This document shows positions 708-28,312 of a stretch of 29,041 bases of DNA, one piece after another. The notes beneath the pieces were generated by a model. It made no database searches. It was not told the DNA's origin and worked only from the letters and a program-made list of their open reading frames with translations. How positions within the stretch are numbered: the stretch's first letter is position 1; each line of letters opens with the position of its first letter. Origin of the DNA: Thermodesulfobacteriota bacterium. Lineage in GTDB: Bacteria; Desulfobacterota_D; UBA1144; Nemesobacterales; JAZGCJ01. Made by a program: the position numbers and the translations under genes. Where the stretch lies: NCBI GenBank assembly GCA_036476895.1, contig JAZGCJ010000206.1, forward strand, positions 1-29,041, read 5' to 3'.

Positions 708-1141
708 TCATATATGTTAAATCAGATGAGAGGTTAATGTTTATTACTCCAATACTCATAGATACCATAACAAAGAAAGAATATAACGTATCGAAGATTA
801 CTCACAGTGATCCTCGTGCTGGCCTTAATTCTATAAGCATTACGTTAGAATGGCCTGATCCTCTGACCTGGAAGAAGGAAAGTAAAAAGGGTAGAATCTA
901 CCGATTGAAGGATAAAGATTCAAAGAAGTTTGATGAGTTCGTTCAATTGGTAGGTCATTCAGGATTACCCAATGGGTTGAGTAGTTATTTTCAGGTGGTA
1001 AATAATCTTATCGCAATGGAGCAAGCACATAAATATGGTAAAAAGAATCGGAAGGTTTTATATACACAAAAGAAAAGGGCTAAAAAATCCATACGAAATA
1101 AGAGACGAAGCAAAACAGAAAGTTCTGTGGAGAGGACATGA
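704..1141 (+). CDS. hypothetical protein with strongly basic C-terminus (KKNRKVLYTQKKRAKKSIRNKRRSK)
   Basis: ATGA coupling with the upstream gene; lysine/arginine-rich tail suggests nucleic-acid binding. Confidence 0.55.
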   Translation: MIIYVKSDERLMFITPILIDTITKKEYNVSKITHSDPRAGLNSISITLEWPDPLTWKKESKKGRIYRLKDKDSKKFDEFVQLVGHSGLPNGLSSYFQVVNNLIAMEQAHKYGKKNRKVLYTQKKRAKKSIRNKRRSKTESSVERT

Positions 1142-1340
1142 TCTTGAACGGGCGACAGAGGTTCTTAATGCCGTTCATAGGGATTTAACAAAGAGGCAGG
1201 CGAATGATCCACAAGTTTTGATATATGAACATATGAATGGGATAAGAAAATTGTCAAAGAAAAAGCTAAGGAAGTTGACAATCAAAGCATATAACAATTT
1301 GGAGGCAATCGATAAACTAGACGATTGGGGATTACTATAA
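1035..1340 (+). CDS. small protein of the C-terminal NNLEAID-tag family (…KAYNNLEAIDKLDDWGLL)
   Basis: ORF ends with the conserved module. The start is ambiguous: ATG at 1035 overlaps the upstream gene by about 100 nt; an alternative TTG at 1143 follows a GGAGAGGA RBS. Confidence 0.5.
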   Translation: MVKRIGRFYIHKRKGLKNPYEIRDEAKQKVLWRGHDLERATEVLNAVHRDLTKRQANDPQVLIYEHMNGIRKLSKKKLRKLTIKAYNNLEAIDKLDDWGLL

Positions 1341-1738
1341 TGGATGCGATGATTGATTTAAAGACTCGGAAACTGTATTACGTTCAAGCAGACTTTACTG
1401 CTGGTCAAGAAAAAGATTGGTTGAATATAAAATTAATTGGCATACCTAGTGAGCCTGGAAAAACTCCTTCGATGGATTTACTTTTAGGGCATCCATGTGT
1501 GGTGAAATTAGATGGCTATAACCATCATTATCATGTCGATAATCCATTATATGAGCAATCCAGTAATGGGCAAATGTTGTTTTATGGAGTGATGCTGGAT
1601 AAGTTATCATTATTAACCGGAACAGTTTTACGACTTGTTCCAGCATCTAATTTAGAACTGATGGCAGCATTGCATGGAGAAATATCAGAAAAGATTGAAG
1701 CATTCAAAGAATATGAAAAGGAAGCACAAATGCCATGA
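1340..1738 (+). CDS. hypothetical protein (~132 aa)
   Basis: TAATG stop/start overlap with the previous gene; an in-frame ATG at 1325 is also possible. Confidence 0.55.
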   Translation: MDAMIDLKTRKLYYVQADFTAGQEKDWLNIKLIGIPSEPGKTPSMDLLLGHPCVVKLDGYNHHYHVDNPLYEQSSNGQMLFYGVMLDKLSLLTGTVLRLVPASNLELMAALHGEISEKIEAFKEYEKEAQMP

Positions 1739-2229
1739 GAATAACATTAAAGGGTAAAGGAAAAGAATTAGAAGTAAGAACTGTACTGGATGGTGTGGGG
1801 GTGAGTATCTTTGGAACTGAAGCTTGGTTATATGGTAAAAATAAAACTATTCTACCATATCTTATGCATTATATACAAGGATATATTACTAAGGATGAAT
1901 TGAGTAATGTTTTGATTCATCATTATGGTTTAGAGAATTTGCACGTCACATCATTAATGGGAACAATAGATGAGCACGAACAAGACTGGAAAAAGTGGGC
2001 AAAAAATCCTCATCTCTGGTATGCTTACTATCATAAGGATATTGATGACCAAACGAAAGAGGTAACAATACGTCCAGCACAGGAAGATGATATGCCTCAA
2101 AACTATTCATCAGATTTAGAATCAGAGGATAAATTTTCAATGTACAAAAAAATGTTACAAGAATCACAGGAAACAAACAGAAATCTTGCAAGCATTCAAA
2201 GCAAATTGCAGACTTGGAGTCCAAGATGA
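1735..2229 (+). CDS. hypothetical protein (164 aa)
   Basis: ATGA overlap with the upstream stop; long ORF. Confidence 0.6.
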   Translation: MRITLKGKGKELEVRTVLDGVGVSIFGTEAWLYGKNKTILPYLMHYIQGYITKDELSNVLIHHYGLENLHVTSLMGTIDEHEQDWKKWAKNPHLWYAYYHKDIDDQTKEVTIRPAQEDDMPQNYSSDLESEDKFSMYKKMLQESQETNRNLASIQSKLQTWSPR

Positions 2230-2615
2230 GTGATAGACTAACATGTTGGGAAGGATTAACAATTTGTCGGTGTACGGCAAGTCAGGGCGGTTCAATTGCT
2301 CCTAATTCATGCGAACCAGAAGGACATATCGGTGTGATTTTAATGGATTGGTCGCCATTTCGTCCCACACAAACACCAAAATCTGTTACCTCTAAAGATA
2401 AAAAGATGGATGCATTCAGTTGTCAGTGTACTGACGAAGCTAAGGTTCTTCGGAACATCCATAATAAACTGGAAAGGATGTATTGGTACAGTAAAACGAC
2501 ACAGGAAGAAGTTGAGCAGGTTAAAAAAGTTCTTATCGAAGTCTGGTGGTTGGATAATTTGAAGCTGGTAGAAATCTTTGAGGCATACGATTTAAACGTG
2601 GAGATTAAAAAATGA
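2226..2615 (+). CDS. Cys-rich hypothetical protein with degenerate C-terminal tag (…WWLDNLKLVEIFEAYDL…)
   Basis: ATGA overlap at 2226; several Cys/His (CWEG…CRC…C…C…CQC) suggest metal binding. Confidence 0.55.
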   Translation: MSDRLTCWEGLTICRCTASQGGSIAPNSCEPEGHIGVILMDWSPFRPTQTPKSVTSKDKKMDAFSCQCTDEAKVLRNIHNKLERMYWYSKTTQEEVEQVKKVLIEVWWLDNLKLVEIFEAYDLNVEIKK

Positions 2616-3172
2616 TGTACTTTACATCAGATACACACTTCGATCATTTCAATATCATCCGGTACTGTAATCGTCCATTCAAAACAACTGAAGAAATGAA
2701 TGAGGCTATAATTAAGAATTGGAATGAGAGGATAAAGTCGAACGATACGGTCTATCACCTTGGAGACTTTGCGTTTGCTGGGAAAGAACGAATGGCAGAG
2801 ATTGGAGCAAGGCTCAACGGTAAGAAGTATTTGAAGATGGGGAATCATGACAAAGGACGGAAGCGATTGCTGGGAGCAGGATTCAAGTCTATAATACGGC
2901 CTGAATCTCAAACTGTGATGAGTTTGAGTGGAATTCATGTTAGGTTGTCACATTATCCCTATCGATATAAGTTTGAAGACGGGCAACAAAGAGATTTTCC
3001 CGCAGCACCAGAAGATGAGGGAATGATATTGTTATGTGGTCATGTGCATGAGAAGTGGAAGCTGAAGAACCGGATGCTAAATGTCGGTGTGGATGTGTGG
3101 GATTTCAAACCAGTCTCAGAAGATGAGATTATAGATTACATTCAAAAGAATATCTTAAAGGGGAAAAAATGA
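2612..3172 (+). CDS. calcineurin-like metallophosphoesterase (MPP superfamily)
   Basis: Motifs D-x-H (SDTHFDH), GD (HLGDFAF), GNHD and GHVH in canonical order and spacing. Confidence 0.8.
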   Translation: MMYFTSDTHFDHFNIIRYCNRPFKTTEEMNEAIIKNWNERIKSNDTVYHLGDFAFAGKERMAEIGARLNGKKYLKMGNHDKGRKRLLGAGFKSIIRPESQTVMSLSGIHVRLSHYPYRYKFEDGQQRDFPAAPEDEGMILLCGHVHEKWKLKNRMLNVGVDVWDFKPVSEDEIIDYIQKNILKGKK

Positions 3173-3444
3173 AACGAATACAGGTAACTACGAGAATGGA
3201 TGAAGCAGTCCTAAAGATGGTTGATGGAAACGTAGGAGCTACAACTGTGGTAGGACAGATCATGAAGAAGCTCCCACAAGATTGGATTATTCAATTAGCG
3301 TTTCTAGACGACCAAGAAATCTATGGTCCTGACATTTGGATTTGTTACAAGAACGTATGTGATTATGATCTTGATAAATTTATAGACGAGAATAAACACA
3401 ATAAGCTTAAAGGTTTGTTAGCGGAGTATAAGAAGCAGAAATAA
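3169..3444 (+). CDS. hypothetical protein (91 aa)
   Basis: ATGA coupling; GGGGAAAAAATG RBS. Confidence 0.6.
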   Translation: MKRIQVTTRMDEAVLKMVDGNVGATTVVGQIMKKLPQDWIIQLAFLDDQEIYGPDIWICYKNVCDYDLDKFIDENKHNKLKGLLAEYKKQK

Positions 3445-3474
3445 GCAGTAAATACAACTAAGGAGAAGGTAATA

Positions 3475-3675
3475 ATGAAGGGTACAGTAAAGTGGTTCAA
3501 CAAAAGTAAAGGATACGGGTTCATTACCAAAGAAGGCGGAGGCGATGTATTTTTACATTTCTCTGCAATTCAAGGTGACGGATACAAAGAAGTCCGAGAA
3601 GGTGAAGAAGTGGAGTTCGATATAGAGACAGGAGAGAAAGGCGAGAAAGCAACAAACGTAAAAAGACAGTCATAA
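3475..3675 (+). CDS. cspA: cold-shock protein, CspA family (CSD/OB-fold, RNP1/RNP2 motifs KGYGFI / VFLHFS)
   Basis: [17 protein letters not shown]…DVFLHFSAI… is near-canonical CspA; AAGGAGAAGG RBS. Confidence 0.9.
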
Positions 3676-3980: not shown

Positions 3981-4010
3981 GGGACTAACTAAAAAAAAAC
4001 TGGAGGCAGT

Positions 4011-5399
4011 ATGAAATTAGATTCGAAACGAAATAAGGTGAAGATGAAAGACTTAACCAAAGACGACTTAATCGATATAGAAAGGTGGGGATTTTGGCAT
4101 AGGTCATATCAATCACATTTCTTTCAGAACTTCTTAGACGTGAGACATGTGGAGGAGGTTGACTTCAGTTCTCATGTGGCACCCCATGCGGAAGGATTAT
4201 CAATTCGATTTATCCTTGAAGAATTCTTTAAGACGAAAAAGATCAAGGTTGAAAAGATAGTCAACATCGGTAACGATAGTGATTATGCCCCAAGAGTCTC
4301 AAACATTGAATATGAGAATGGAAAGTTTCGTAGTTGCTTGTTAATTGGGCAGTACATGTTGGATATTAATAAAGAGAAATATCTTTTATCGGTGGATACA
4401 TTATCTCAGGGGTTCATGGACTTTGTTTTCGTTGCACGAAAAGAAGCAAAGATTAAGGCGAAAGACCTAACAACGGACTTGACCACCTATGCTTCTTCTC
4501 ATAATTATCTGAAAGGCAAGAAGATTGATGGAGACTTAACGCTGATTGATTTGAAACGAAAGTATGGGTGGGATGATTTAATCTTAGATAAGTACACAAA
4601 TAAAGAATTACAGACTAATCTTATGAATCTGATTGATAATGTAGAAGTGTATGAGAAGAATAATCTTCCTCTCAAAAGAGGATTGATTATATCAGGAGAG
4701 CCAGGAACAGGAAAGAGTTTACTCGGAAAGATTCTGTGTCACAAGACTGACTGGACATTCATATGGGTGACACCGAAGAATTTTCATGATATTGAAAGTG
4801 TATCGAACATCATGAAAACGGCACGCATGTTAGGACCCACCATCTTATTTCTCGAAGACATTGATTTGTATGGTAAACATAGAGACCAGAATGCATTGGC
4901 TTCTTTGTTGGGGGAACTTATGAATCAGCTAGATGGAATCGAGGATAATAATTATGTCGTGACAATTGCTACGACAAATAATCAAGATGCCTTAGAGAAA
5001 GCGTTAATCAATAGACCTGGCAGGTTTGATAAGGTTATTAGATTTAACAGCCCGACGAATAAGTGCCGAGAACAAATGTTCAAAACTTTCATTGGTCATT
5101 TACGAATGGATGCGGATATTGATATGGAAGAATTGATAGACCGGACGGATAGATTGACAGGGGCACAGGTTAAAGAGGTTGTAAATCAAGCTGTTCTGCA
5201 AGCCATTGATTTTAAGTCATATGATGAGAACAAGATTCTAACGCTAAAGAAAAAGCATTTCGAGATTGCATTAAATCAGACCCGTAATAAAGACTTTAAG
5301 GCTGCGGTAGGGTTTGGGCTTGGGATAAATGGAAATGGACAAGATAATGCTGAAGTACAACCAACATATACTGAACCACCAATGGAGACGGGACCGTAA
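4011..5399 (+). CDS. AAA+ ATPase (classical AAA clade) with an unassigned 230-aa N-terminal domain
   Basis: Walker A GEPGTGKS, Walker B ILFLEDID, second region of homology TTNNQDALEKALINRPGRFD, C-terminal helical lid; GGAGG RBS. Confidence 0.9.
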   Translation: MKLDSKRNKVKMKDLTKDDLIDIERWGFWHRSYQSHFFQNFLDVRHVEEVDFSSHVAPHAEGLSIRFILEEFFKTKKIKVEKIVNIGNDSDYAPRVSNIEYENGKFRSCLLIGQYMLDINKEKYLLSVDTLSQGFMDFVFVARKEAKIKAKDLTTDLTTYASSHNYLKGKKIDGDLTLIDLKRKYGWDDLILDKYTNKELQTNLMNLIDNVEVYEKNNLPLKRGLIISGEPGTGKSLLGKILCHKTDWTFIWVTPKNFHDIESVSNIMKTARMLGPTILFLEDIDLYGKHRDQNALASLLGELMNQLDGIEDNNYVVTIATTNNQDALEKALINRPGRFDKVIRFNSPTNKCREQMFKTFIGHLRMDADIDMEELIDRTDRLTGAQVKEVVNQAVLQAIDFKSYDENKILTLKKKHFEIALNQTRNKDFKAAVGFGLGINGNGQDNAEVQPTYTEPPMETGP

Positions 5400-6490: not shown

Positions 6491-6783
6491 AAAAGGTCTT
6501 AGAGTTACTGGAGATAAATGACGGTCTCTACATCGTACCAGAGGAGATTGCTGAGATAACAATAATTAAAGATGGTAAAGTGTTTGGTCCTCAGCATCTT
6601 GGTCATACACTTATCACACTCAAAAATGGTAACTCTCATATAGCTCCGCTTGCTCTTCTCAAACTATTTCAGAATTGGTCTATATCTGGTCAAGGCTCAG
6701 GCTTTGAAGGTGTGGATATTTACACAATCTACAAAGATGAGGAAGAGCTTAAGGCAGAGCTTAAGACAGACTCGAAGGAGTGA
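6487..6783 (+). CDS. hypothetical protein (98 aa)
   Basis: ATGA coupling. Confidence 0.55.
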   Translation: MKKVLELLEINDGLYIVPEEIAEITIIKDGKVFGPQHLGHTLITLKNGNSHIAPLALLKLFQNWSISGQGSGFEGVDIYTIYKDEEELKAELKTDSKE

Positions 6784-7265
6784 CATTTATCATAAATGTA
6801 CCTATCGAGTTTTCCATAAGACCAGATGATTATAAGACAAGGGTTCGAAGCCGAAGAGGGTTTGAATACGTTAATCATATCGATGGTTGGGATCGTTTAG
6901 ATAAGAACAGACGCAGAGCCGATTGGTATTTTGAAAGAGTTGTGAATGATTGTTTGTCGGTATGGGATCAATCCGAAGCTTTTAGACATGAGAAACAATT
7001 ACACCAAGGAAGAAAAGTTTGTAGTTGCATGGATAGTCTTACTTGTCGGTGTTTAGAACGCTTGCTATTGGTTAGAATACTTGATTATTTACAATCCCGC
7101 AAAGGTAATGGTGTAAGAGTATCTTACATTCCTTTAGTGAGAGCATGGTTCGTAGCGGAGTATGGTATTTGGCATTACGATATGAATAACTTAAAGATTA
7201 TAGAAGCATGGGACAGTTTTGAATTGGAGGAAGAATATGGCAAAGCTACGAAAGAATGTGTGTAA
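6780..7265 (+). CDS. hypothetical protein with degenerate C-terminal tag (…YDMNNLKIIEAWDSFEL…)
   Basis: ORF with GTGA start coupling and a tag-like C-terminus. Confidence 0.55.
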   Translation: MTFIINVPIEFSIRPDDYKTRVRSRRGFEYVNHIDGWDRLDKNRRRADWYFERVVNDCLSVWDQSEAFRHEKQLHQGRKVCSCMDSLTCRCLERLLLVRILDYLQSRKGNGVRVSYIPLVRAWFVAEYGIWHYDMNNLKIIEAWDSFELEEEYGKATKECV

Positions 7266-8389: not shown

Positions 8390-8686
8390 ATGAACAACTT
8401 CTATAAATTAGCAACATTAGTAAAAAGTAAACAACAAAAGATTAAACCTACAGGATATCCTAAGATTGAACCCTTAAAGACTTTTTGCAACACGTGTGGC
8501 TCTCCGATGTTGAAAAAAACATTTATTCGGTTCAAAGGATATAGTACGATATCGGGGAAAGCTCATTATAAAGAAGTAAGTCAAGATATATGTTCGTTGA
8601 CTAGGGTAACTTTTTTTAAGCTACCTTTCATTTTAGCTGATCGGAAAGTGTTTGGATATGCTAACGGACATGATGATTATTTATGA
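8390..8686 (+). CDS. hypothetical protein (98 aa)
   Basis: GGAGAAAGG RBS; stop overlaps the next start. Confidence 0.5.
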   Translation: MNNFYKLATLVKSKQQKIKPTGYPKIEPLKTFCNTCGSPMLKKTFIRFKGYSTISGKAHYKEVSQDICSLTRVTFFKLPFILADRKVFGYANGHDDYL

Positions 8687-9033
8687 GATTAAAGAAACAT
8701 CCAAAGATCATAGTCAAAACAATTAACAAAGGATTTCAAAAAGATATCAAGGCTACGTTTGATTTTAATGATGGGATGATACCAAAAGCTCAGGATATTG
8801 TATCATTAGGTGGAGCTACTAAGAAATGGATTGAATTTGCAAAGTGGAAAAAGAAACCAGAGATGACTCGCAAAGATGGTGAGACGTTTATAAAAGCATG
8901 GAAGAATGGATATGTATGTTATGAGGGAAGTAAGAGAAGATGGTACAAGAGTACAATTAAAAAACATCTCTTGAATGAAATGATAGATAATCTTGAAGCT
9001 ATAGATTTATTGAGAGAGAATGATTTGTTATGA
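8683..9033 (+). CDS. NNLEAID-tag family protein (…KKHLLNEMIDNLEAIDLLRENDLL)
   Basis: Conserved C-terminal module; first of three tandem family members. Confidence 0.6.
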   Translation: MRLKKHPKIIVKTINKGFQKDIKATFDFNDGMIPKAQDIVSLGGATKKWIEFAKWKKKPEMTRKDGETFIKAWKNGYVCYEGSKRRWYKSTIKKHLLNEMIDNLEAIDLLRENDLL

Positions 9034-9320
9034 AGAAACTATCAACAACGGATTTAGTAAAGTCCATAACGGTACTCCGCTCAACCGCAGTTCGAAAAGG
9101 TGATATAGTGCTGTTAAGTAATGGTACATCGTGTATTATTACAGGTGATGGAATGACACGAAAACAAATCAAGACTTATTTATCCATGATGAAAAAGGAT
9201 TTAGATAGGAAACGATCTTATGTGGTTCCTAAGAATGTGAGAAAGTATGTTATTAAACACGCAGCAAATAATTTAGACGCAATTGACTTATTGGAGAAAT
9301 ATGGATTCTTACAAATTTAA
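9030..9320 (+). CDS. NNLEAID-tag family protein (…RKYVIKHAANNLDAIDLLEKYGFLQI)
   Basis: Conserved C-terminal module; ATGA coupling. Confidence 0.6.
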   Translation: MKKLSTTDLVKSITVLRSTAVRKGDIVLLSNGTSCIITGDGMTRKQIKTYLSMMKKDLDRKRSYVVPKNVRKYVIKHAANNLDAIDLLEKYGFLQI

Positions 9321-9717
9321 TAACAACACGATGATTTATATTAATGGTCTCTTACAGTTGGAAGGTAAGACAAACGATTACATGATTTATGATGGGATGG
9401 TACTATTTACATCTCAATTGAACGAAAATGATGTGGTTCAAAAAGTAACTATAGGTGGGAAGATAACTATGAATAAGGGTGGAAAATATGGTTCTCTATT
9501 GAAAGAAACTTTTAAAGGCTCAGAGTTTATGAGTAACCAACTAGAATCAATCGTTAAGAACTATGCTCGGTATCGACAGTTTTATTCTCCACAACAAATA
9601 AAGGATATGATTATTAAATTTGGGGTAAACAATTTGAAAATCATTGATACGCTAAAGCGTATAAATTTACTTTATACGCCTAAGCGTATAAAACGTAAGA
9701 GAGCGAAAACACGTTGA
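9283..9717 (+). CDS. NNLEAID-tag family protein (…IKFGVNNLKIIDTLKRINLL) with basic tail
   Basis: Conserved module; the true start may be the ATG at 9331. Confidence 0.5.
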   Translation: MTYWRNMDSYKFNNNTMIYINGLLQLEGKTNDYMIYDGMVLFTSQLNENDVVQKVTIGGKITMNKGGKYGSLLKETFKGSEFMSNQLESIVKNYARYRQFYSPQQIKDMIIKFGVNNLKIIDTLKRINLLYTPKRIKRKRAKTR

Positions 9718-10055: not shown

Positions 10056-10319
10056 ATGAAAACAGGTATGACTCCAGATGGAATATTTGATTATTATGCA
10101 ATGGTTATAGAAGGTATTGGGGATCACTACAAACTGGCTCCAGGAAGAGGTGCTGATATCTTAGCAATAAATAAAGCTATAAATCGCTTAGGAGCAGGTA
10201 GTGTGGGGACTAAGAATCCAATCACGATAGATACTCAGTTGCATGAAGAATTTAAAAAGTTGATAGGGCAAATCGATAATCTTAAATACACAGAGAGAAT
10301 AGGAAACGAACAGAAATGA
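10056..10319 (+). CDS. hypothetical protein (87 aa)
   Basis: ORF; ATGA coupling downstream. Confidence 0.55.
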   Translation: MKTGMTPDGIFDYYAMVIEGIGDHYKLAPGRGADILAINKAINRLGAGSVGTKNPITIDTQLHEEFKKLIGQIDNLKYTERIGNEQK

Positions 10320-11997: not shown

Positions 11998-12272
11998 TGA
12001 GTGATTGTAAATGTTCAGAACAAATAGCTCGACTGCGGATTAGGTTACGAATCCTCGAACGCTATATGGCCGAACTCATGTTGAAGAGAGATCGTCAGCA
12101 GTTACGAGATGGGGTGCCGGACGAATATAAAGAGTGGCCGTTAGATTCGTGTGAAGACTGTCATCATATACGGCAGGAACATGCCTACAATCTCTATCAT
12201 TGTCAGCGTAGGAAAGATGATGAACGATGTAAATGTAATGAGTTTATCTTTCAGGAGGTTCCGGCGGAATGA
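11997..12272 (+). CDS. Cys/His-rich small protein (putative zinc binding)
   Basis: CKC…CEDCHH…HCQ…CKC pattern; ATGA coupling. Confidence 0.5.
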   Translation: MSDCKCSEQIARLRIRLRILERYMAELMLKRDRQQLRDGVPDEYKEWPLDSCEDCHHIRQEHAYNLYHCQRRKDDERCKCNEFIFQEVPAE

Positions 12273-12787
12273 TGGATATAATCTTTGGGGCGGGTTTAGC
12301 GTCTGCGGTCTTCATATTATTTCTTTTTATTTGGACGGGCCTTTTAGACAAAGAGATTAAGCCTTTTTTACTACACAGATTTTTCTATCCGAAACTACCG
12401 TTTAAGTTTCCATATCGATATGCATTAGCGAAATGGGAGAGAGCAGAGTTTCATACGAAGAACCAATGTAGAGAAATTACGATAAAAGGTAAGGTCGCCA
12501 CTTGGTTTGGTATCTTAGAAGTTGGAGTTAAGGAGAATGGGTTATGGGGCTATACAATTTTTCTATTAAAAGGTGTTGGGACAAAAGAAGGATTTGTTCT
12601 TGAACCCGACACTGATTTAATTCGGTTGCTAAATGAGGGGAAAGACTTTTCAAGGATTTTTAAAGAGCACGAAATTGAATTACACATGGAATCGGATTTA
12701 GGGACCAAGATGAAAGAGTTAGAAACTAAAATCAATAACTTGAAAGTGATTGAGAGGATAACAGATGAAGCTGATAGAAACTCCTGA
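12269..12787 (+). CDS. hypothetical protein with N-terminal TM helix and degenerate tag (…KINNLKVIERITDEADRNS)
   Basis: 172-aa ORF. Confidence 0.55.
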   Translation: MMDIIFGAGLASAVFILFLFIWTGLLDKEIKPFLLHRFFYPKLPFKFPYRYALAKWERAEFHTKNQCREITIKGKVATWFGILEVGVKENGLWGYTIFLLKGVGTKEGFVLEPDTDLIRLLNEGKDFSRIFKEHEIELHMESDLGTKMKELETKINNLKVIERITDEADRNS

Positions 12788-13160
12788 GATTGAGTATGAG
12801 GAGCAAGAAGTACAATATAACGGAGAACATCCTTATGTTAAGGATTTGGTGTCAAATGAACGGCATCCAGTCACAGCACATACGCATGAATTGGTGTGGA
12901 GGGTGTGGCCTGTAACAGACAGTCGGTTATACAAGTTGAAATACTGGGGATCAATAGAGCGGGAACTGATAGCTTTTGAAAACCAGCATCAACCACCGTT
13001 TTTTATTTATTTAGGAGCAGACTTTAAAATCCCTTATTTATCTTTAGCTGATCCGTCCTTGCCATCGTTGAGTAATTTAGAATTGGTGGAATACATTGGA
13101 CAGAAAAGGATTGAATATGAAGAGTTTTTAGTTAGACTTAAGACTGGACAAAAGCGGTAA
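12765..13160 (+). CDS. hypothetical protein with degenerate tag (…SLSNLELVEYIGQKR…)
   Basis: 131-aa ORF. Confidence 0.5.
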   Translation: MKLIETPEIEYEEQEVQYNGEHPYVKDLVSNERHPVTAHTHELVWRVWPVTDSRLYKLKYWGSIERELIAFENQHQPPFFIYLGADFKIPYLSLADPSLPSLSNLELVEYIGQKRIEYEEFLVRLKTGQKR

Positions 13161-13205: not shown

Positions 13206-13640
13206 ATGATTATGGATACTTTTGACGAACACGAACACAAAGCTTTATTAACTGATGTTGTTAGCGGGATTGCATTTGAGGTTGAATTAAAGAGAACGCA
13301 TCGCATTGATCTAGCTATGTCAATGAGACATGATGGTTTGTATGAGGTCAAATTGAAAGAACCTATGTTAGCAAAACAGGCATTCTTTTTGATAGATCGT
13401 CCATTTGTATTTAAGGTGTGGGATATGTTAAGTAGTCATGAGGTTCCCGTTATCGATGATTTTGTTGTGACAGATATTAATTCAGAGCTATTAACAAATA
13501 TTGCACTGGATAAACATCGTCCCTATTTGAGGGAAATTATTTTGCGAAAGATAAACAATTTACAAGTAGTTGACTTAACTGAGAAGTTCAAAGAGAAAGA
13601 CAGAAAGACCAAACTAAAAATGAAACAAAAGGAGAAATAA
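13206..13640 (+). CDS. hypothetical protein with degenerate tag (…RKINNLQVVDLTEKF…) and Lys-rich tail
   Basis: 144-aa ORF downstream of the strong promoter. Confidence 0.55.
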   Translation: MIMDTFDEHEHKALLTDVVSGIAFEVELKRTHRIDLAMSMRHDGLYEVKLKEPMLAKQAFFLIDRPFVFKVWDMLSSHEVPVIDDFVVTDINSELLTNIALDKHRPYLREIILRKINNLQVVDLTEKFKEKDRKTKLKMKQKEK

Positions 13641-16290: not shown

Positions 16291-16422
16291 ATGGTAGCAA
16301 TCGCAGTTCACATCATATTCGGTTTGATGTTGTTGTTTGCAATGAAGTCGGAAGTCAAAGCACCAGAACAACCGTCAGACCCAGTACAAGTTGAGCAATT
16401 AAATGAAAAAACTTTGCAATGA
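16291..16422 (+). CDS. small TM protein (43 aa)
   Basis: AGGGAGAG RBS before the ATG at 16291; MVAIAVHIIFGLMLLFAM hydrophobic segment. Confidence 0.35.
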   Translation: MVAIAVHIIFGLMLLFAMKSEVKAPEQPSDPVQVEQLNEKTLQ

Positions 16423-16921
16423 GTGTGGTAAAGATAAAGAGCTAAAAGATTTTCCAAATCATATAGATGGTAAATTTGGAGTTACGAAAAAATGTAAAAT
16501 TTGTACCAGAATATATAAAAAAATCTATAGAAGTCAGCCTCATATAAAGAAACAAATAAAAGATTACAATACTGCTAATAGAAAAAAAAGAAATACATAT
16601 TATAGAGAATGGAATAAAAATCCAAAAAGAAAAGAATGGATGAGAAACTATAATCGTCAGCATAAATTAAAAAAGAATTATAACTTAACGTTAGAGGACT
16701 TTAATAACATGTTAAAGAAACAACAAAATTCTTGTGCCATATGCAATAATGTATTTAAGAGTGGTGCAAGATATATTCATGTAGATCATTGTCATAAAAC
16801 AAATAAAGTTCGTGGGTTACTGTGTCCTTATTGTAATGTTGGAATTGGTAATTTTTTTGACAAACAACATTTATTAAACAAAGCAATTAAATATTTAGAT
16901 AAATCTCAAAGAGGAGTTTAA
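16403..16921 (+). CDS. HNH endonuclease, Endonuclease VII family, with N-terminal Cys-rich/basic domain
   Basis: CAICNN…HVDHCHKTNKVRGLLCPYCNVGIG matches the EndoVII signature (C-x2-C…H-x-D-H-x-H…RGLLC-x2-CN); gene body is markedly AT-rich relative to its neighbours. Confidence 0.85.
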   Translation: MKKLCNECGKDKELKDFPNHIDGKFGVTKKCKICTRIYKKIYRSQPHIKKQIKDYNTANRKKRNTYYREWNKNPKRKEWMRNYNRQHKLKKNYNLTLEDFNNMLKKQQNSCAICNNVFKSGARYIHVDHCHKTNKVRGLLCPYCNVGIGNFFDKQHLLNKAIKYLDKSQRGV

Positions 16922-18249: not shown

Positions 18250-18310
18250 ACAAATTGATGGAAAAGTCTTATAACATAAGTAGGTGTAGTGACAACAGAT
18301 TTGCGGACAA

Positions 18311-18482
18311 AGGAAGTTCCTATAAAACTTCACTAATGGAAAAAATACTTCCCGTCCCTCTAATTTAGGTAAAGGGAGTTCCTATAACTATTTAAAGGTA
18401 GACCGCCTTCGGGCGGTCTGATATTACTCCCCACCAATTTTTAGGCAGAAAGAGTTCCTATAAAATAAGCCCTTCGGGGCTT
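18311..18482 (+). promoter_or_regulatory. three direct copies of a 17-nt motif AAAGrGAGTTCCTATAA, two followed by GC hairpins with UUCG tetraloops
   Basis: Copies end at 18327, 18388 and 18465. Hairpins AGACCGCC-TTCG-GGCGGTCT at 18400-18419 and AAGCCC-TTCG-GGGCTT at 18467-18482 have no U-tract. They sit 70-220 nt upstream of the 608-aa gene. Confidence 0.5.
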
Positions 18483-18533
18483 CTACGAAAATACTCTTCG
18501 CCTTATTTTTAAATCTAATATCGGGAGAATCAA

Positions 18534-20434: not shown

Positions 20435-20611
20435 ATGGGAGTATCAACGACATTAAGTTGGGAAGAAATAAAGGAAGAGCGAATCAACGGGTATATTGAT
20501 TCTTATGATAATGGTGAGATTAATAAAGCCGAATTACGGGAAGGCATAATCGAGGTTGCGGATAATAATTTAGAAGCGATTGATATTCTTGATTTTGCTG
20601 GAGCACTGTAA
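20435..20611 (+). CDS. NNLEAID-tag family protein (…EGIIEVADNNLEAIDILDFAGAL)
   Basis: ATG at 20435 after GGGAGG (20423-20428); in frame with ORF 20396-20611, whose 5' part overlaps the terminator. Confidence 0.55.
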   Translation: MGVSTTLSWEEIKEERINGYIDSYDNGEINKAELREGIIEVADNNLEAIDILDFAGAL

Positions 20612-21872: not shown

Positions 21873-22210
21873 TACGGAGTAGTACCTTTGCGAGAAGGCC
21901 ACGGACGGGGTAGGAGGAGTAAATTCCTATATGATTGTGAAACTCATTCTTTCTTCTCACAAATTTGATAGCATAGTTTAATTTGGAAAAACACCTCTGA
22001 ACATCGGTTGATGCGGAGGAGATGGTGGTTCGAGTCCACTTGGTATCTGGATGGGTGCAAACCCGCATTCGGTTGGTCCCCGTTAAAAGACCAAGATTTT
22101 GTGGAGGTGTGGTGTACACACAGGAGTGCCGACTAGTAGGCGTGGGTGAGAACCTACTTTATGATCTCCAACTCTGGAATAGACGGTAAGAATCCGTCCC
22201 ACAGAACAAT
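21873..22210 (+). ncRNA. candidate structured non-coding RNA (unclassified)
   Basis: No ORF over 40 codons on either strand. GGGT-GCAA-ACCC GNRA hairpin (22052-22063); tRNA T-arm-like GGTGG-TTCGAGT-CCACT (22024-22040); GACGG-TAAGAAT-CCGTC (22182-22198); long-range complements TTCTCAC (21954)/GTGAGAA (22147) and GGACGGGG (21903)/CCCCGT (22078); TTCCTATA motif at 21924. Confidence 0.3.
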
Positions 22211-23476: not shown

Positions 23477-23477
23477 A

Positions 23478-24125: not shown

Positions 24126-24127
24126 AC

Positions 24128-24586: not shown

Positions 24587-24595
24587 GGGGGCGGT

Positions 24596-25434: not shown

Positions 25435-25577
25435 GATGAATGAAGCGAAAATCTATTACATCAATCATAATGGAAACATTTATGGGCGATGGACAAAAGA
25501 GGAAGAAGCAAAAAACTTCGGGAAGGTTCTCACACAAGATGAGTGGGATGAGAATAAAGTAGTCGAGGTGACTAGGC

Positions 25578-25847: not shown

Positions 25848-26047
25848 AGAAATTAATAAGTATGACCGTAGATATTGAGTTCGGGCTTCCAGTTGTTTTA
25901 TTGAAAAAAGGTGATATCATAGAAGTTGAACCTCATAAGTCAATTCCTAATGCTTATCATGTTTTCTTTAACGATAAACGAACCGAAAGTGAATTATTGT
26001 TAAATGAACCCGCAATATTTGAAAGAGTTAATGAAGCAGCAGCATGA
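25844..26047 (+). CDS. hypothetical protein (67 aa)
   Basis: ATGA coupling. Confidence 0.5.
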   Translation: MKKLISMTVDIEFGLPVVLLKKGDIIEVEPHKSIPNAYHVFFNDKRTESELLLNEPAIFERVNEAAA

Positions 26048-26400
26048 GTATCAATCCGAACGTCTATCAATTAAAGGACCCCAAGACTAAAGCTATTCTT
26101 GTGGGGACACATGGTGTTGGTGGAATTCAGATTACTGTTTCTTGTTACAATAAGTTGTACGATAAGTTATCGTATGCACCCGATAACTTAATCGGAATGG
26201 TTTTTGAGGAGTCCTTGCGAGGTGAGAAATCATTTGCAAAGGTCACATCGTTTGGTAGTCATAAGTGGATGAGTAAGAGGAAAAATGAGACCTTCTCAAC
26301 TTTATGTTATGAGGCGGTCCAGTTGGAGGTGTTCAAAGATAATTTATCGACCATAGAAGCTGTTGAGGAGCATAACAAGAAATTTAAGGAGAAGAAGTGA
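26044..26400 (+). CDS. hypothetical protein (118 aa)
   Basis: ATGA coupling. Confidence 0.55.
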   Translation: MSINPNVYQLKDPKTKAILVGTHGVGGIQITVSCYNKLYDKLSYAPDNLIGMVFEESLRGEKSFAKVTSFGSHKWMSKRKNETFSTLCYEAVQLEVFKDNLSTIEAVEEHNKKFKEKK

Positions 26401-26717
26401 GGGAGATATTGCTGGCAGCATTGATAGCCGGACAATTTGGACTTGCCTCGGTATCCGAGACACCTATAACAATTGAATTATATGCAATGAATTGTCAAAA
26501 AGTTGCAGATTTTACAGCAATAACAGTTATCATTCCAGAGGATAGTTATATGATTTATCGTAGTGATAAACAAAGTCTCAAAGCCTCAACTTGGAAGTTG
26601 GAAGGAATTCAGGAAATTAGAGTTACGGCAAAGAAGAATAAATGGATTTTTGTTCGGGGGAAAGATGGTAAATTCAAAGAAGTAGAACAAAGTGTCTGCG
26701 GGACGATAATTTCATGA
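26397..26717 (+). CDS. hypothetical secreted/periplasmic protein (signal-like N-terminus)
   Basis: GTG start; MREILLAALIAGQFGLASVSE. Confidence 0.45.
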   Translation: MREILLAALIAGQFGLASVSETPITIELYAMNCQKVADFTAITVIIPEDSYMIYRSDKQSLKASTWKLEGIQEIRVTAKKNKWIFVRGKDGKFKEVEQSVCGTIIS

Positions 26718-27019
26718 GGAACAAAAAGGATTTGAAATATTGGCAGGATGTGGGGGAATTAGTTAAAGAGATTTTTCTATCGACGGAGAAGTGCTCGTGT
26801 AACTTAATCATAGAGTTGATGGAGGAAGAAGAAGATTGGGGAAAGCATCAACCCTGTCATTATTGTCAATTGATAGCGGTTATCAAACACACGTTGCTCA
26901 ATTATTATGAAAAATCCATCAAAAGGGCTGACGTTGTAGAGGTTTTGATGGAATACAACATCCAGAATTTGGAGATAATCGAGGCTATTGAAGCCGTCGA
27001 TCAGTTGAAAAAAGAGTAA
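26714..27019 (+). CDS. NNLEAID-tag family protein, Cys-containing (…MEYNIQNLEIIEAIEAVDQLKKE)
   Basis: Conserved module; ATGA coupling. Confidence 0.55.
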   Translation: MRNKKDLKYWQDVGELVKEIFLSTEKCSCNLIIELMEEEEDWGKHQPCHYCQLIAVIKHTLLNYYEKSIKRADVVEVLMEYNIQNLEIIEAIEAVDQLKKE

Positions 27020-27224
27020 CATGTTTCACCACGAATCAGGTAATTTGTAATATTATCTGATTAATATATAGGGTATTGTGACCCTACAAATAAATTAAAA
27101 AGGTATAAAAAGTGGTGAAATCCTGGACTCCGACACATAATAAGCAAGCCGATTTAGGCATCTTCGGATAAGTCCGGTCTACATATAGGTAGACCGTACT
27201 CATGCGGTTTACCACTCTCTACAT

Positions 27225-27256
27225 CCAGTTTGGTAAACCCAAAACTGGATTTTTTA
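27225..27256 (+). terminator. rho-independent terminator
   Basis: CCAGTTT…AAACTGG 7-bp stem followed by ATTTTTTAT; an 8-bp perfect hairpin CGGTCTAC-ATATAG-GTAGACCG lies at 27175-27196 just upstream. Confidence 0.55.
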
Positions 27257-27263
27257 TATTACA

Positions 27264-27336
27264 GCCCATGTAACTCAGATGGTAGAGTGCCTGTTTGAAG
27301 CACAGGTGGTCGCAAGCTCGAACCTTGCCGTGGGCA
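27264..27336 (+). tRNA. tRNA-Phe (anticodon GAA)
   Basis: Manual fold: acceptor GCCCATG/CGTGGGC, D-stem ACTC/GAGT, anticodon stem CCTGT/ACAGG, loop TTGAAGC, T-stem GCAAG/CTTGC; no encoded CCA. Confidence 0.7.
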
Positions 27337-27337
27337 C

Positions 27338-27411
27338 GCCGAATTAGTACAATGGTAGTACACGTCATTGGTAATGATGAGATATGAGTTCAATTCTCGT
27401 ATTCGGCTCCA
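27338..27411 (+). tRNA. tRNA with anticodon GGU (Thr)
   Basis: Acceptor GCCGAAT/ATTCGGC, D GTAC/GTAC, anticodon stem CGTCA/TGATG, loop TTGGTAA, T-loop TTCAATT, encoded CCA. Confidence 0.65.
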
Positions 27412-27412
27412 T

Positions 27413-27486
27413 GCCACCATAGCTCAATAGTAGAGCAATGCTTTTGTAAAGCGAAGACGAGGGAGCGTTACCTTCTGGTGGCTCCA
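27413..27486 (+). tRNA. atypical tRNA, anticodon UGU (Thr) as folded
   Basis: Perfect acceptor GCCACCA/TGGTGGC and D-arm GCTC/GAGC. Anticodon stem has one mismatch (ATGCT/AGCGA); loop TTTGTAA; T-loop AGCGTTA is non-canonical; encoded CCA. Confidence 0.45.
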
Positions 27487-27491
27487 GATTT

Positions 27492-27803
27492 ATGTTCAAC
27501 AAAATAAAGCGTTGGTATATAGACTTTTGTAAAAGACATTCAACGGCTGTGGGGATTGTCGAGTTAGAAGATTATATCATTCCTTCAGGGCATTCAGTTT
27601 TTACAAATTTGCATGGTTGGTGGACTCCACCAAATGAAGTTTTAGAGTTTTGGGCAGCAGGATGCAAATATCGATACCTCAGTGATAATTGGTGGTTTAT
27701 TGACTTAGTGTTAGCATCTAAAGAAGCGGATACGGATATTGAAAAGATAAAACAGTCGTATGAGAAAGCAATTCAAGATTTTTATCGAATCAATGCTTTG
27801 TAA
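27492..27803 (+). CDS. hypothetical protein (103 aa), Trp-rich
   Basis: ATG 6 nt after the tRNA CCA; stop abuts the next tRNA. Confidence 0.55.
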   Translation: MFNKIKRWYIDFCKRHSTAVGIVELEDYIIPSGHSVFTNLHGWWTPPNEVLEFWAAGCKYRYLSDNWWFIDLVLASKEADTDIEKIKQSYEKAIQDFYRINAL

Positions 27804-27877
27804 GCCTCAATAGTTTAATGGAAGAATTCTCGTTTCGTAATCGAGGGATGCCAGTCCGATTCTGGCTTGAGGCTCCA
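27804..27877 (+). tRNA. tRNA, anticodon CGU (Thr) as folded
   Basis: Acceptor GCCTCAA/TTGAGGC, T-arm GCCAG-TCCGATT-CTGGC, anticodon stem CTCGT/TCGAG with U:U at 31:39, loop TTCGTAA; weak D-stem; encoded CCA. Confidence 0.5.
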
Positions 27878-27970
27878 GATTTTCGTCGCCGGAGACCCTT
27901 TTCACCCTTTCGAGGTCTTGTGGACTTCAAAGGCGAAGGGTTGTCAGAAGTCTGACGGTGACACTAATTT

Positions 27971-28312
27971 ATGAATCGATTCGAAAAAGTCCGAGACTTA
28001 GTTAAAGATATAGCAGCTAGGAAATGTAACAAAATTGACGAATACAATAATTTTGTTACAACTTTTCCGACAATTATCAGCATATATGTTGAACATATGA
28101 AATTCTGTAAAGAAAAAGAAAGTCCAATCTTCACTCATCATACTGCAAGAATATCTACGAAACAAGCAAATGAGTTAAGAGAGGAGTGGAGAGATGAATT
28201 TATCAAAACGTGTAAATATCCACACTATAATTTAAACAATTTAGAAATTATTGAACTGCACGATTTATTAGTAAAGTTAAAATTTTTAGAATCAACAAAT
28301 TTGGGGCTGTAG
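27971..28312 (+). CDS. NNLEAID-tag family protein (…KYPHYNLNNLEIIELHDLLVKLKFL…)
   Basis: Conserved module; TAG stop overlaps the first bases of tRNA-Ala. Confidence 0.55.
   Translation: MNRFEKVRDLVKDIAARKCNKIDEYNNFVTTFPTIISIYVEHMKFCKEKESPIFTHHTARISTKQANELREEWRDEFIKTCKYPHYNLNNLEIIELHDLLVKLKFLESTNLGL

What the first reader, a model, noticed from the sequence alone, without database searches (positions are those of the whole stretch)
1035..28312. Paralogous family of at least 12 small proteins sharing a conserved C-terminal module (…NNLEAIDLL-x3-G-h-L) on unrelated N-terminal bodies
Eleven ORF C-termini carry the module:
- 1035-1340 …KAYNNLEAIDKLDDWGLL
- 8683-9033 …MIDNLEAIDLLRENDLL
- 9030-9320 …HAANNLDAIDLLEKYGFLQI
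- 9283-9717 …FGVNNLKIIDTLKRINLL
- 20435-20611 …VADNNLEAIDILDFAGAL
- 26714-27019 …YNIQNLEIIEAIEAVDQL
- 27971-28312 …NLNNLEIIELHDLLVKLKFL
- 12269-12787 …KINNLKVIERI (degenerate)
- 13206-13640 …KINNLQVVDLTEKF (degenerate)
- 6780-7265 …MNNLKIIEAWDSFEL (degenerate)
- 2226-2615 …LDNLKLVEIFEAYDL (degenerate)
12765-13160 (…SNLELVEYIG) is a twelfth, weaker match. A basic/hydrophobic stretch ([KR]-x-h-I-K-h) precedes the NNL core. The DNA encoding the motif differs by synonymous changes (GAGGCAATCGAT / GAAGCTATAGAT / GACGCAATTGAC / GAAGCGATTGAT), so it is conserved at protein level, not a DNA repeat. N-terminal parts are unrelated and 40-150 aa long. I do not recognise this module from any described family. 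A constant C-terminal tag on variable bodies could be a shared docking, packaging or addressing signal: for example binding one common partner (a host protein, or the AAA+ ATPase at 4011-5399), a targeting signal for injection or encapsidation, or a protease/degron tag.
Basis: seen in the sequence. Interest (0 to 1): 0.85.

Follow-up and report, generated by a model that had tools for sequence, protein, structure and literature searches.

The report
Shared three-helix domain on phage proteins
At least 16 small accessory proteins of one uncultured large phage (11 of them in this window) share a previously undescribed, roughly 50-residue helical domain, usually at the C-terminal end of otherwise unrelated sequences; it is a real lineage-restricted gene family, and its function is still only inferred.

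Summary
ORF 12765-13160 is not supported. Five more members lie in the 10 kb upstream of the window, so the contig holds at least 16.

Conservation is at protein level, not DNA. The parts N-terminal to the module show no detectable similarity to each other.

The "tag" is not a linear peptide. AlphaFold2 models it as helices 2 and 3 of a confident three-helix bundle of about 50 residues. ORF 20435-20611 is that domain alone. In one upstream member the module is internal.

No Pfam, NCBIfam, PHROG, PADLOC, PDB-sequence or fold match is significant. A profile search of 1.84 billion representative proteins found only five non-self hits. All are orthologues from closely related metagenomic phage contigs, where the D-E-F gene trio is syntenic and the module is usually more conserved than the body.

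More distant relatives that carry the same AAA+ and 608-aa genes lack the module.

Best reading: a lineage-specific protein-protein docking or assembly domain. The degron, packaging-signal and AAA+-adaptor readings are disfavoured or unsupported. Function is inferred, not shown.

The parts
1035..1340 (+). Member A, 101 aa. The module is the last 36 residues (DNA about 1230-1337): ...KKKLRKLTIKAYNNLEAIDKLDDWGLL*
   Evidence: Leave-one-out HMM 11.3 bits, 0 of 14,800 decoys. NCBI did not call this gene on the source contig. It overlaps ORF 704-1141 by 107 nt in another frame.
2226..2615 (+). Member B, 129 aa, with a Cys-rich body (CRC...CQC). Module: ...VKKVLIEVWWLDNLKLVEIFEAYDLNVEIKK*
   Evidence: Leave-one-out 7.7 bits, 2 of 14,800 decoys. 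It is in the representative library as P0003.
6780..7265 (+). Member C, 161 aa. Module: ...LVRAWFVAEYGIWHYDMNNLKIIEAWDSFELEEE..., with a 6-residue insert between helices 2 and 3
   Evidence: Leave-one-out 11.9 bits, 0 decoys. Against the orthologue L019 3249-3704, identity is 58% in the module and 39% in the body.
8683..9033 (+). Member D, 116 aa, first gene of the tandem D-E-F trio. Ends ...KSTIKKHLLNEMIDNLEAIDLLRENDLL*
   Evidence: Leave-one-out 9.7 bits, 0 decoys. Orthologues P0004 and P0006 keep the module and the stop position.
9030..9320 (+). Member E, 96 aa. Ends ...KNVRKYVIKHAANNLDAIDLLEKYGFLQI*
   Evidence: Leave-one-out 11.6 bits, 0 decoys. In the AlphaFold2 model, residues 41-96 have pLDDT 82-89 with helices H44-59, H67-77 and H81-91, while residues 1-40 are below 50. 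Orthologues: P0011 (86% identity) and P0008.
9283..9717 (+). Member F, 144 aa from the first TTG (NCBI start at 9301; the library form P0002 starts at 9358). Module ...QQIKDMIIKFGVNNLKIIDTLKRINLL, followed by a basic 14-residue tail
   Evidence: Leave-one-out 9.8 bits, 0 decoys. Orthologue P0007 keeps both module and tail.
12269..12787 (+). Member G, 172 aa, with a hydrophobic N-terminal stretch that looks like a transmembrane helix. Module variant: ...MKELETKINNLKVIERITDEADRNS*
   Evidence: Leave-one-out 12.3 bits, 0 decoys. Full-length relative at L019 7043-7516. 10056-10319 is a paralogue of its C-terminal half.
13206..13640 (+). Member I, 144 aa. Module ...RPYLREIILRKINNLQVVDLTEKF..., followed by a lysine-rich tail
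   Evidence: Leave-one-out 8.4 bits, 1 of 14,800 decoys.
20435..20611 (+). Member J, 58 aa: the domain on its own, with no body. It starts 75 nt downstream of the conserved 608-aa gene
   Evidence: Leave-one-out 14.5 bits, 0 decoys. AlphaFold2 mean pLDDT 86.7, helices H9-25, H31-41 and H45-55. It equals NCBI protein V3U54_07815.
26714..27019 (+). Member K, 101 aa, with a CxC...CxxC body. Module: ...IKRADVVEVLMEYNIQNLEIIEAIEAVDQLKKE*
   Evidence: Leave-one-out 16.4 bits, 0 decoys. Against orthologues P0005 and P0012, identity is 78-81% in the module and 35-58% in the body.
27971..28312 (+). Member L, 113 aa, lying inside the tRNA cluster. Module: ...EFIKTCKYPHYNLNNLEIIELHDLLVKLKF...
   Evidence: Leave-one-out 12.7 bits, 0 decoys. 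Its 3' end overlaps tRNA-Ala (28303-28379) by 10 nt.
12765..13160 (+). Not supported as a member
   Evidence: Leave-one-out 0.1 bits, p=0.08.
10056..10319 (+). Possible degenerate member, 87 aa (...KKLIGQIDNLKYTERIGNEQK*). Paralogue of the C-terminal half of 12269-12787
   Evidence: phmmer E about 1e-3 over 84 residues against 12269-12787. Module leave-one-out p=0.02 only.
26044..26400 (+).
   Evidence: Matches the regular expression 19 residues from the stop. The leave-one-out HMM is not significant (p=0.03).
4011..5399 (+). Listed because it was tested, not because it belongs to the family
   Evidence: Pfam AAA, E=2.8e-21. It has more than 560 homologues at E<=1e-30, most of those listed matching about 90% or more of its length. 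The loci fetched around three of them (L024-L028) contain no module.

Best explanation

Consensus: S/P-x-x-x-h-[KR]-x-h-h-h-x(3-4)-[ND]-N-L-[EK]-h-[IV]-[DE]-x-h-x(3)-[GDN]-h-L. The residue before the invariant Asn reads as the N-cap and the E/K as its capping box. The invariant Asn, the invariant acidic residue five positions later and the usually acidic helix 3 are the candidate functional surface.

The domain has been multiplied in one narrow lineage of uncultured large (jumbo-type) phages. It is joined, usually at the C-terminus, to short bodies with no detectable similarity to each other: some with zinc-finger-like Cys motifs, one with a hydrophobic N-terminal stretch, and one with no body at all.

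What is shown:
- the family exists;
- it is predicted to fold;
- its taxonomic spread is narrow;
- between orthologues the domain is usually conserved more strongly than the bodies.

What is inferred: the domain is a protein-protein docking or assembly module. It would tie the variable bodies to one common partner, either a host or phage hub protein or the other family members, during infection. The bodies would supply the individual activity or target.
For: Real family: regular-expression enrichment of 14 against 0.11 expected, with 0 on the - strand. The unbiased all-vs-all phmmer is dominated by module pairs. Leave-one-out recovers 11 window proteins at p<=1e-4 and 5 upstream proteins at p<=4e-4.

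Protein-level selection: synonymous codon variation and no DNA repeat. In most orthologue pairs the module is more conserved than the body: 78 vs 35%, 53 vs 31%, 58 vs 39%, 53 vs 41%. The stop-codon position of D-like and E-like genes is conserved in the five related assemblies fetched (L019/L020, L021, L029/L030, L031, L032).

Folded domain: J alone gives mean pLDDT 86.7 and three helices. E residues 41-96 have pLDDT 82-89 with the same three helices, while the body is below 50.

Independent module:
- Bodies show no similarity.
- One member is the domain alone.
- One upstream member has the module internally.
- One body has two CxxCxGxG motifs, with a weak DnaJ_CXXCXGXG hit at E=0.0024.

Not nucleic-acid binding: helix 3 has net charge -1 to -4 in 9 of 11 members, helix 2 ranges from -2 to +6, and whole-protein pI ranges from 4.1 to 10.1.

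Undescribed and lineage-restricted:
- No Pfam, NCBIfam, PHROG, PADLOC or PDB match, and no family is hit by more than one member.
- Only 5 non-self hits among 1.84e9 representatives.
- None in IMG/VR or in 185,579 species genomes by pattern plus tblastn.
- No hit above the best reversed-sequence decoy score (9.3 bits) in the loci of the more distant relatives, which make up most of the 396 kb of related loci scanned.
Against: - No partner has been identified, and no interaction could be computed or measured.
- The AlphaFold2 alignments are shallow (12 and 10 rows) and made largely of the paralogues themselves.
- A confident monomeric bundle is equally compatible with a purely structural role.
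- The strongest conservation (N-cap, capping box, hydrophobic positions) can be explained by folding constraints alone.
- The decoys are residue shuffles, which do not preserve helical periodicity.
- The first 38.9 kb of the source contig could not be read, so the full gene complement and any co-varying partner gene are unknown.
- The D vs P0006 pair shows no extra conservation of the module (61 vs 66%).
Confidence: 0.45

Rival explanations
1. This is a fast-diverging paralogue family with no shared partner. The genes arose by repeated duplication. The C-terminal helices are simply the most constrained structural core, and the N-terminal parts diverged beyond recognition. Each protein acts on its own, for example as a host-takeover or anti-defence factor in an arms race.
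For: - D, E and F are adjacent, overlapping genes and share about 50 alignable residues.
- 12269-12787 and 10056-10319 are paralogues over 84 residues.
- Several members (B, C, K) have Cys motifs upstream of the module.
- The conserved positions are mostly core and capping positions.
- The region is a hypervariable block of small ORFs, almost none of which has a homologue in the related loci.
Against: - Bodies range from 0 to 134 residues with no pairwise similarity.
- Bodies have visibly different make-up: two CxxCxGxG motifs, CxC...CxxC, a hydrophobic N-terminal stretch, or strand-rich predicted segments.
- One member is the bare domain, and one has the module internally.
- Between orthologues the module is usually held more tightly than the body, which suggests the module itself carries function.
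Confidence: 0.25
2. The three-helix domains are a homo- or hetero-oligomerisation module. They bind one another, so family members, for example the co-translated D-E-F trio, assemble into mixed complexes.
For: - Tandem, translationally overlapping D-E-F genes are conserved as a trio in five related assemblies.
- Many small helical bundles dimerise.
- A stand-alone domain (J) could cap or regulate such assemblies. This last point is inference.
Against: - AlphaFold2 gives a closed, confident monomeric bundle for J.
- No multimer prediction could be run.
- Helix 3 is acidic in most members, which does not favour self-association through that face.
Confidence: 0.15
3. The module is a terminal addressing signal: a C-terminal degron or adaptor tag for the phage AAA+ ATPase or a host AAA+ protease, or a signal for encapsidation or ejection.
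For: - In 8 of 11 strong-type instances (window plus relatives) the protein ends exactly 14 residues after the invariant Asn, with a Gly/Asp/Asn followed by two hydrophobic residues.
- An AAA+ gene is syntenic with module genes in the window and in L019.
Against: - The module is a folded domain, not a disordered tail.
- In window members 0 to 14 residues follow the 36-residue module, and in two upstream members 35 and 73 follow, so one is clearly internal.
- The AAA+ family, including its N-terminal region, is conserved in more than 560 homologues, and the sampled neighbourhoods of three of them lack the module.
- The module genes sit among small accessory ORFs and tRNAs, not in a recognisable structural module.
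Confidence: 0.08
4. The matches are a chance or compositional artefact: amphipathic-helix similarity in an AT-rich genome rich in N, K, I, L and E.
For: Individual "degenerate" members score only 2-7 bits against a profile built from the strong members alone.
Against: - Composition-matched shuffles almost never reach the observed scores.
- There are no matches in the - strand frames.
- Orthologues in other metagenomes conserve the module.
Confidence: 0.02

Closest known systems
J-domain (Hsp40/DnaJ) proteins, including phage-encoded ones
   Same: This is an architectural analogy. Both are small helical domains with an invariant tripeptide in the loop before the last long helix, preceded by an often basic helix. 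Both are attached to many unrelated bodies and so could recruit one hub. One upstream member even combines the module with two DnaJ-type CxxCxGxG motifs.
   Different: - There is no HPD motif; the invariant element here is N-N-L.
- Three helices are predicted rather than four.
- No Pfam DnaJ hit for any member.
- The partner is unknown.
Poxvirus ankyrin / PRANC (F-box-like) multigene families
   Same: Both are virus lineage-specific expansions in which a short constant helical domain at the C-terminus is shared by proteins with variable target-binding bodies. This rests on my own knowledge and was not tested here.
   Different: The host system is different (SCF ubiquitin ligase), the bodies there are ankyrin repeats, and there is no sequence or fold evidence of relationship. 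The comparison is only a model for how such an architecture can work.
UBA / CUE / EF-Ts-N-like three-helix bundles
   Same: Size (about 45-55 residues) and three-helix topology. Helix 3 plus tail (EAIDLLEKYGF) resembles UBA helix 1 plus the MGF loop.
   Different: - No Pfam UBA hit.
- The matching segment would be the first UBA helix, and the module ends there.
Terminal recognition peptides: ssrA-type degrons, encapsulin cargo-loading peptides, ESCRT-III MIM helices bound by the Vps4 MIT domain
   Same: A constant C-terminal element on varied proteins. Most strong members end in two hydrophobic residues.
   Different: Here the element is part of a folded domain, can be internal, and is followed by up to 73 residues in some members. 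No receptor has been identified.
TIGR04540 (CLB_0814 family) and DUF4090 / ssr1528 family
   Same: These are the only sub-threshold profile hits. J against TIGR04540: E=5e-4, 20 bits. E against DUF4090: E=0.003-0.006, 17-18 bits.
   Different: Both are below the curated cut-offs (50 and 22.7 bits). Each is hit by a single member out of 12. Neither family points to a function for this module.

Membership tests
Any Pfam-A, NCBIfam, PHROG or PADLOC family | A profile match at or above the curated or significant threshold, shared by several members | tested here: not met
   There are no hits above the cut-offs. No family is matched by more than one of 12 module sequences, even at E<=10.
Proteins of known structure (PDB) | A significant sequence or fold match | tested here: not met
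   Best results:
- Profile against PDB sequences: E=0.93.
- Foldseek PDB: E=1.2.
- Foldseek BFVD: E=0.25.
J-domain (PF00226) | An HPD tripeptide in the loop between helices II and III, plus a profile match | tested here: not met
   The loop carries N-N-L, not HPD. There is no Pfam hit. hhalign probability is 0.05%.
UBA-like (PF00627 and relatives) | A three-helix bundle with an MGF-type loop after helix 1 and a conserved helix 3, plus a profile match | tested here: not met
   There is no Pfam hit. hhalign probability is 3% or less, and only 11 columns align, to the wrong helix.
C-terminal degron (ssrA / ClpX C-motif type) | A short, unstructured motif at the extreme C-terminus | tested here: not met
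   The element is predicted to be folded. In window members 0 to 14 residues follow the module, and 35 and 73 follow in two upstream members.
Adaptor or substrate tag for the phage AAA+ ATPase (MIM-MIT-like pairing) | Co-occurrence or co-evolution of the tag with the ATPase N-domain, plus physical binding | tested here: inconclusive
   The ATPase and module genes co-occur in the window and in L019. However, the ATPase family has more than 560 homologues, most of those listed matching about 90% or more of its length, and the sampled flanks of three of them lack the module. Binding cannot be tested with these tools.
Capsid-targeting or cargo-loading peptides (T4 CTS, encapsulin CLP) | A short terminal peptide on proteins found in the capsid, with genes linked to the head module | not testable with these tools
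   No structural genes were recognised in the 40 kb examined. No virion data exist for this uncultured phage.
Helix-turn-helix DNA-binding domain | A conserved basic recognition helix, plus a profile match | tested here: not met
   The last helix is acidic (net -1 to -4 in 9 of 11 members), and the charge of helix 2 is not conserved. No HTH family reaches its Pfam cut-off; there is a single weak RHH_9 hit at E=0.05.
EF-hand | A 12-residue loop with ligands at positions 1, 3, 5 and 12 and Gly at 6, conserved in the family | tested here: not met
   Only J has a similar loop (DSYDNGEINKAE), and it has Tyr at position 3. Loop length and sequence differ in all other members. There is no Pfam hit.

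The most novel reading that the evidence does not exclude
The domain is the constant recruitment handle of a phage-encoded modular targeting system. Each variable body would bind a different host or phage target. The shared three-helix domain would deliver them all to one hub machine, such as a chaperone, an unfoldase or protease (possibly the phage's own AAA+ ATPase), or a membrane scaffold such as the SPFH protein at 13643-14542. This would be a bacterial-virus counterpart of J-domain or F-box/PRANC adaptor families. The 58-aa stand-alone domain would act as a competitor or regulator.
Probability: 0.15. Interest if true: 0.75.

Novelty: new member of a known kind. Interest (0 to 1): 0.4.

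Why it matters
About one gene in six in this 40-kb accessory region carries the same small domain, and the domain is absent from every curated family library searched here. If it is a docking handle, it marks a whole set of effectors that converge on one hub. It would also give an entry point for finding that hub: the 58-aa stand-alone domain could serve as bait. As it stands, the finding adds a well-defined new domain family, with a consensus, boundaries and a model, to the dark matter of large uncultured phages. It also illustrates how lineage-specific multigene families arise in their hypervariable regions. Its very narrow distribution limits wider impact unless a mechanism is demonstrated.

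Tried and rejected
1. My first scan of the upstream 10 kb used a regular expression that was too strict, and I wrongly noted "no members". An HMM scan corrected this to five members.

2. Megablast of 25 kb against INPHARED phages found no match. tblastn with the AAA+ found only distant matches of 30% identity or less.

3. The search for related loci:
- A3 in IMG/VR: 86 pattern matches, none confirmed.
- A3 in GTDB genomes: 70 pattern matches, none confirmed.
- AAA+ in IMG/VR: nothing.
- AAA+ alignment in JGI metagenomes: the tool picked poor patterns and returned only two distant loci.

4. The neighbourhoods of the 608-aa gene homologues (L001-L016) and of the AAA+ homologues (L024-L028) hold no module. 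Almost none of the window's small genes has a homologue there.

6. J-domain, UBA and EF-Ts N-domain resemblances were tested with hhalign and rejected. An EF-hand-like loop in J was rejected because it is not conserved. HTH was rejected on charge.

7. Weak hits to TIGR04540, DUF4090, RHH_9 and others were each made by a single member below cut-off, and I treat them as chance.

9. One literature search for comparable phage families returned nothing relevant.

Full report
**Source and setting**

The window is bases about 48,848-77,888 of NCBI contig JAZHCF010533808.1 (78,757 bp). The contig belongs to assembly GCA_044345325.1 and is labelled a Thermodesulfobacteriota MAG.

The sequence reads as phage, not bacterium:
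- About 74 ORFs sit on the + strand at 92% coding density.
- GC content is 34-40% with a constant positive GC skew.
- Most products have no match in the libraries searched.
- The recognisable genes are an AAA+ ATPase, an SPFH/Band-7 protein, endonuclease VII, a cold-shock protein and a metallophosphatase.
- There is a cluster of six or seven tRNA genes.

Homologues of its 608-aa protein and of its AAA+ ATPase lie on viral contigs of up to 207 kb. The source is therefore probably a large, jumbo-type uncultured phage.

Yes.

- A simple pattern for the core occurs 14 times in + strand frames and never in - strand frames. Residue shuffles of the proteome gave a mean of 0.11. That pattern was written after seeing the matches, so two less circular tests were added.
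Its top pairs are almost all module-bearing proteins, aligned over their last 25-50 residues.
- Second, each candidate was left out in turn, a profile was built from the others, and the omitted protein was scored against 14,800 composition-matched decoys. Eleven proteins pass at p<=1e-4.
Neither do two candidates I added, 26044-26400 and 10056-10319.
- ORF 10056-10319 is nevertheless a paralogue of the C-terminal half of 12269-12787.

The conservation is at protein level. Identical residues mostly use different codons, nucleotide identity over the module is 34-51%, and no repeat family coincides with the module. With the module removed, the bodies show no pairwise BLASTP similarity better than E=0.9.

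**The family is larger than the window**

The 10 kb upstream of the window (locus L018) holds five more members, each with p<=4e-4:
- a 70-aa protein with two CxxCxGxG motifs followed by ...FAENNLVALELITDQ...;
- a 104-aa protein;
- a 131-aa protein;
- a 134-aa protein, in which 35 residues follow the module;
- a 187-aa protein, in which 73 residues follow the module, so it is internal.

An earlier regular-expression scan of mine missed these.

The contig therefore carries at least 16 members in the 40 kb I could read. That is roughly one gene in six.

**What the module is**

Alignment of the strong members extends the similarity to about 50 residues.

- AlphaFold2 on the 58-aa protein 20435-20611, with the paralogues as alignment, gives mean pLDDT 86.7. 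It has three helices at residues 9-25, 31-41 and 45-55.
- The model of 9030-9320 shows the same three helices at residues 44-59, 67-77 and 81-91, with pLDDT 82-89. Its N-terminal 40 residues are below 50.

N-N-L-E sits at the start of helix 3. I read the first Asn as the N-cap, with Glu at N3 as a capping box; that reading is inference from the model. The conserved L, I, L and final Leu fall with helical spacing and probably form the core.

The invariant second Asn and the invariant acidic residue five positions later are the best candidates for a functional surface. Helix 3 has net negative charge in 9 of 11 window members. The charge of helix 2 ranges from -2 to +6, and whole-protein pI from 4.1 to 10.1. 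That argues against a common nucleic-acid-binding role.

In short, this is a small folded domain, usually C-terminal, once alone and once internal. It is not a linear tag.

**Is it known?**

No significant match was found anywhere.

| Search | Result |
|---|---|
| Pfam, NCBIfam, PHROGs, PADLOC | Nothing above cut-off; no family hit by more than one of 12 members, even at E<=10 |
| Profile against PDB sequences | Best E=0.93 |
| Foldseek against PDB | Best E=1.2 |
| Foldseek against BFVD | Best E=0.25 |

Resemblances I recalled were tested with hhalign and rejected. These were the J-domain, UBA and the EF-Ts N-domain, with probabilities of 0.05%, 3% and 0.4%.

**How far does it spread?**

A profile search of 1.84 billion representative proteins returned eight hits at E<=1e-3. 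Three are the window's own proteins. Five are orthologues of D, E, F and K. A word-indexed search added two more orthologues.

Their contigs are short metagenomic pieces from several samples. In them the D-E-F trio is syntenic and the stop position is conserved.

The 7.5-kb contig L019 has the gene order metallophosphatase, AAA+ (61% identical), small genes, C-like, D-like, E-like, DUF932 and G-like. It carries four modules.

Between orthologues the module is usually more conserved than the body: 78 vs 35%, 53 vs 31%, 58 vs 39% and 53 vs 41%. One pair shows no difference.

Further out, the module disappears:
- Pattern searches of IMG/VR and of 185,579 species genomes gave no confirmed relative.
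- The loci of more distant relatives, around the 608-aa gene and the AAA+ gene, make up most of the 396 kb of related sequence scanned. They contain nothing above the best reversed-sequence decoy score of 9.3 bits.

The domain is a recent, lineage-specific invention or expansion.

**How it most likely works**

Shown:
- a family with a predicted folded domain;
- purifying selection on the domain;
- attachment to dissimilar bodies;
- narrow distribution.

Inferred: the domain is a protein-protein docking or assembly module. It would link diverse small effector bodies to one partner, or to each other. I put this at about 0.45.

Rivals:
- **Divergent paralogues (about 0.25).** The proteins are ordinary paralogues whose only recognisable remnant is a structurally constrained core, each acting alone. 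The tandem D-E-F genes and the structural nature of most conserved positions favour this. The bare-domain member, the internal copy and the very different bodies argue against it.
- **Oligomerisation (about 0.15).** The domains bind one another. This overlaps with docking.
- **Terminal signal (about 0.08).** They are weakened because the element is predicted to be folded and is sometimes followed by many residues.
- **Chance (about 0.02).** This is excluded for the 11 supported window members.

**The AAA+ ATPase**

The ATPase gives no positive signal as a partner. It has more than 560 homologues at E<=1e-30. Most of those listed match about 90% or more of its length, so its N-terminal region is conserved too. 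The larger relatives I sampled place it in a DnaB, primase, RecA, AAA+, SLT, SbcCD, endonuclease VII, RNA ligase, PolA block. Their sampled surroundings have no module.

**Limits**

- The first 38.9 kb of the contig could not be read.
- The structure alignments are shallow and paralogue-based.
- No multimer prediction or experiment was possible.
- Decoys preserve composition but not helical periodicity.
- The host is unknown. The MAG label may reflect mis-binning or a host link.

**Verdict**

This is a genuine, well-delimited, undescribed small-domain family. The interpretation needs correcting from "tag" to "domain". Function is inferred only, and I score interest as moderate.

Noticed in passing
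window 27264-28749 and 21967-22048: There is a tRNA cluster interleaved with small ORFs. ARAGORN finds Phe-GAA, Thr-GGT, Thr-CGT, Ala-TGC and Asp-GTC. Rfam adds two more tRNA matches at 27413-27483 and 21967-22048. The listed ORF 27818-27955 lies across tRNA-Thr and the CyVA-1 match, so it is probably not a gene.
   Followed up: partly
window 27886-27961: A match to the Rfam CyVA-1 RNA motif (RF02965) scores 43.4 bits, just above its gathering score of 41.4. It lies between two tRNA genes.
   Followed up: no
window 18250-18533: The 284-nt intergenic region upstream of the conserved 608-aa gene holds three copies of ...AGTTCCTATAA. The full 21-nt pattern gives 3 matches against 0 expected. The second and third copies are followed by GC-rich hairpins (GACCGCCTTCGGGCGGTC and AGCCCCTTCGGGGCT-like). 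These may be phage-specific promoters or leader elements.
   Followed up: partly
window 704-1340: Module gene 1035-1340 overlaps ORF 704-1141 by 107 nt in a different frame and was not called in the NCBI annotation. The last about 35 residues of the 704-1141 product are a lysine/arginine-rich run that looks out of frame. The true arrangement of starts and stops here is unresolved.
   Followed up: partly
window 1-29041 (whole contig JAZHCF010533808.1): The contig is deposited as part of a Thermodesulfobacteriota MAG, but its content is phage-like. This is either mis-binning or a hint at the host.
   Followed up: no
window 4011-5399; loci L024-L028: The AAA+ ATPase belongs to a large family with no PHROG functional annotation, and several JGI records label it "FtsH". 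More than 560 homologues were found. In the larger relatives sampled it sits in a conserved block: DnaB, primase, RecA, an unknown of about 440 aa, AAA+, SLT, metallopeptidase, SbcC, SbcD, endonuclease VII, RNA ligase and PolA. In the window phage it is instead surrounded by small ORFans.
   Followed up: partly
window 18534-20360: The 608-aa protein has no Pfam or PHROG match, yet it is conserved at 29-60% identity across 16 IMG/VR contigs of up to 207 kb. It is a conserved core gene of this phage group with unknown function.
   Followed up: no
window 26714-27019, 2226-2615, 6780-7265; L018 708-920: Several module proteins have paired cysteine motifs upstream of the module. CxC...CxxC is conserved in the K orthologues. 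L018 708-920 has two CxxCxGxG motifs and a weak DnaJ_CXXCXGXG hit (E=0.0024). This suggests small zinc-binding bodies.
   Followed up: partly
window 13643-14542, 16403-16921, 3475-3675, 2612-3172: The recognisable accessory genes among the ORFans are an SPFH/Band-7 protein (E=5e-32), endonuclease VII (E=1e-22), a cold-shock-domain protein and a calcineurin-like phosphoesterase.
   Followed up: no
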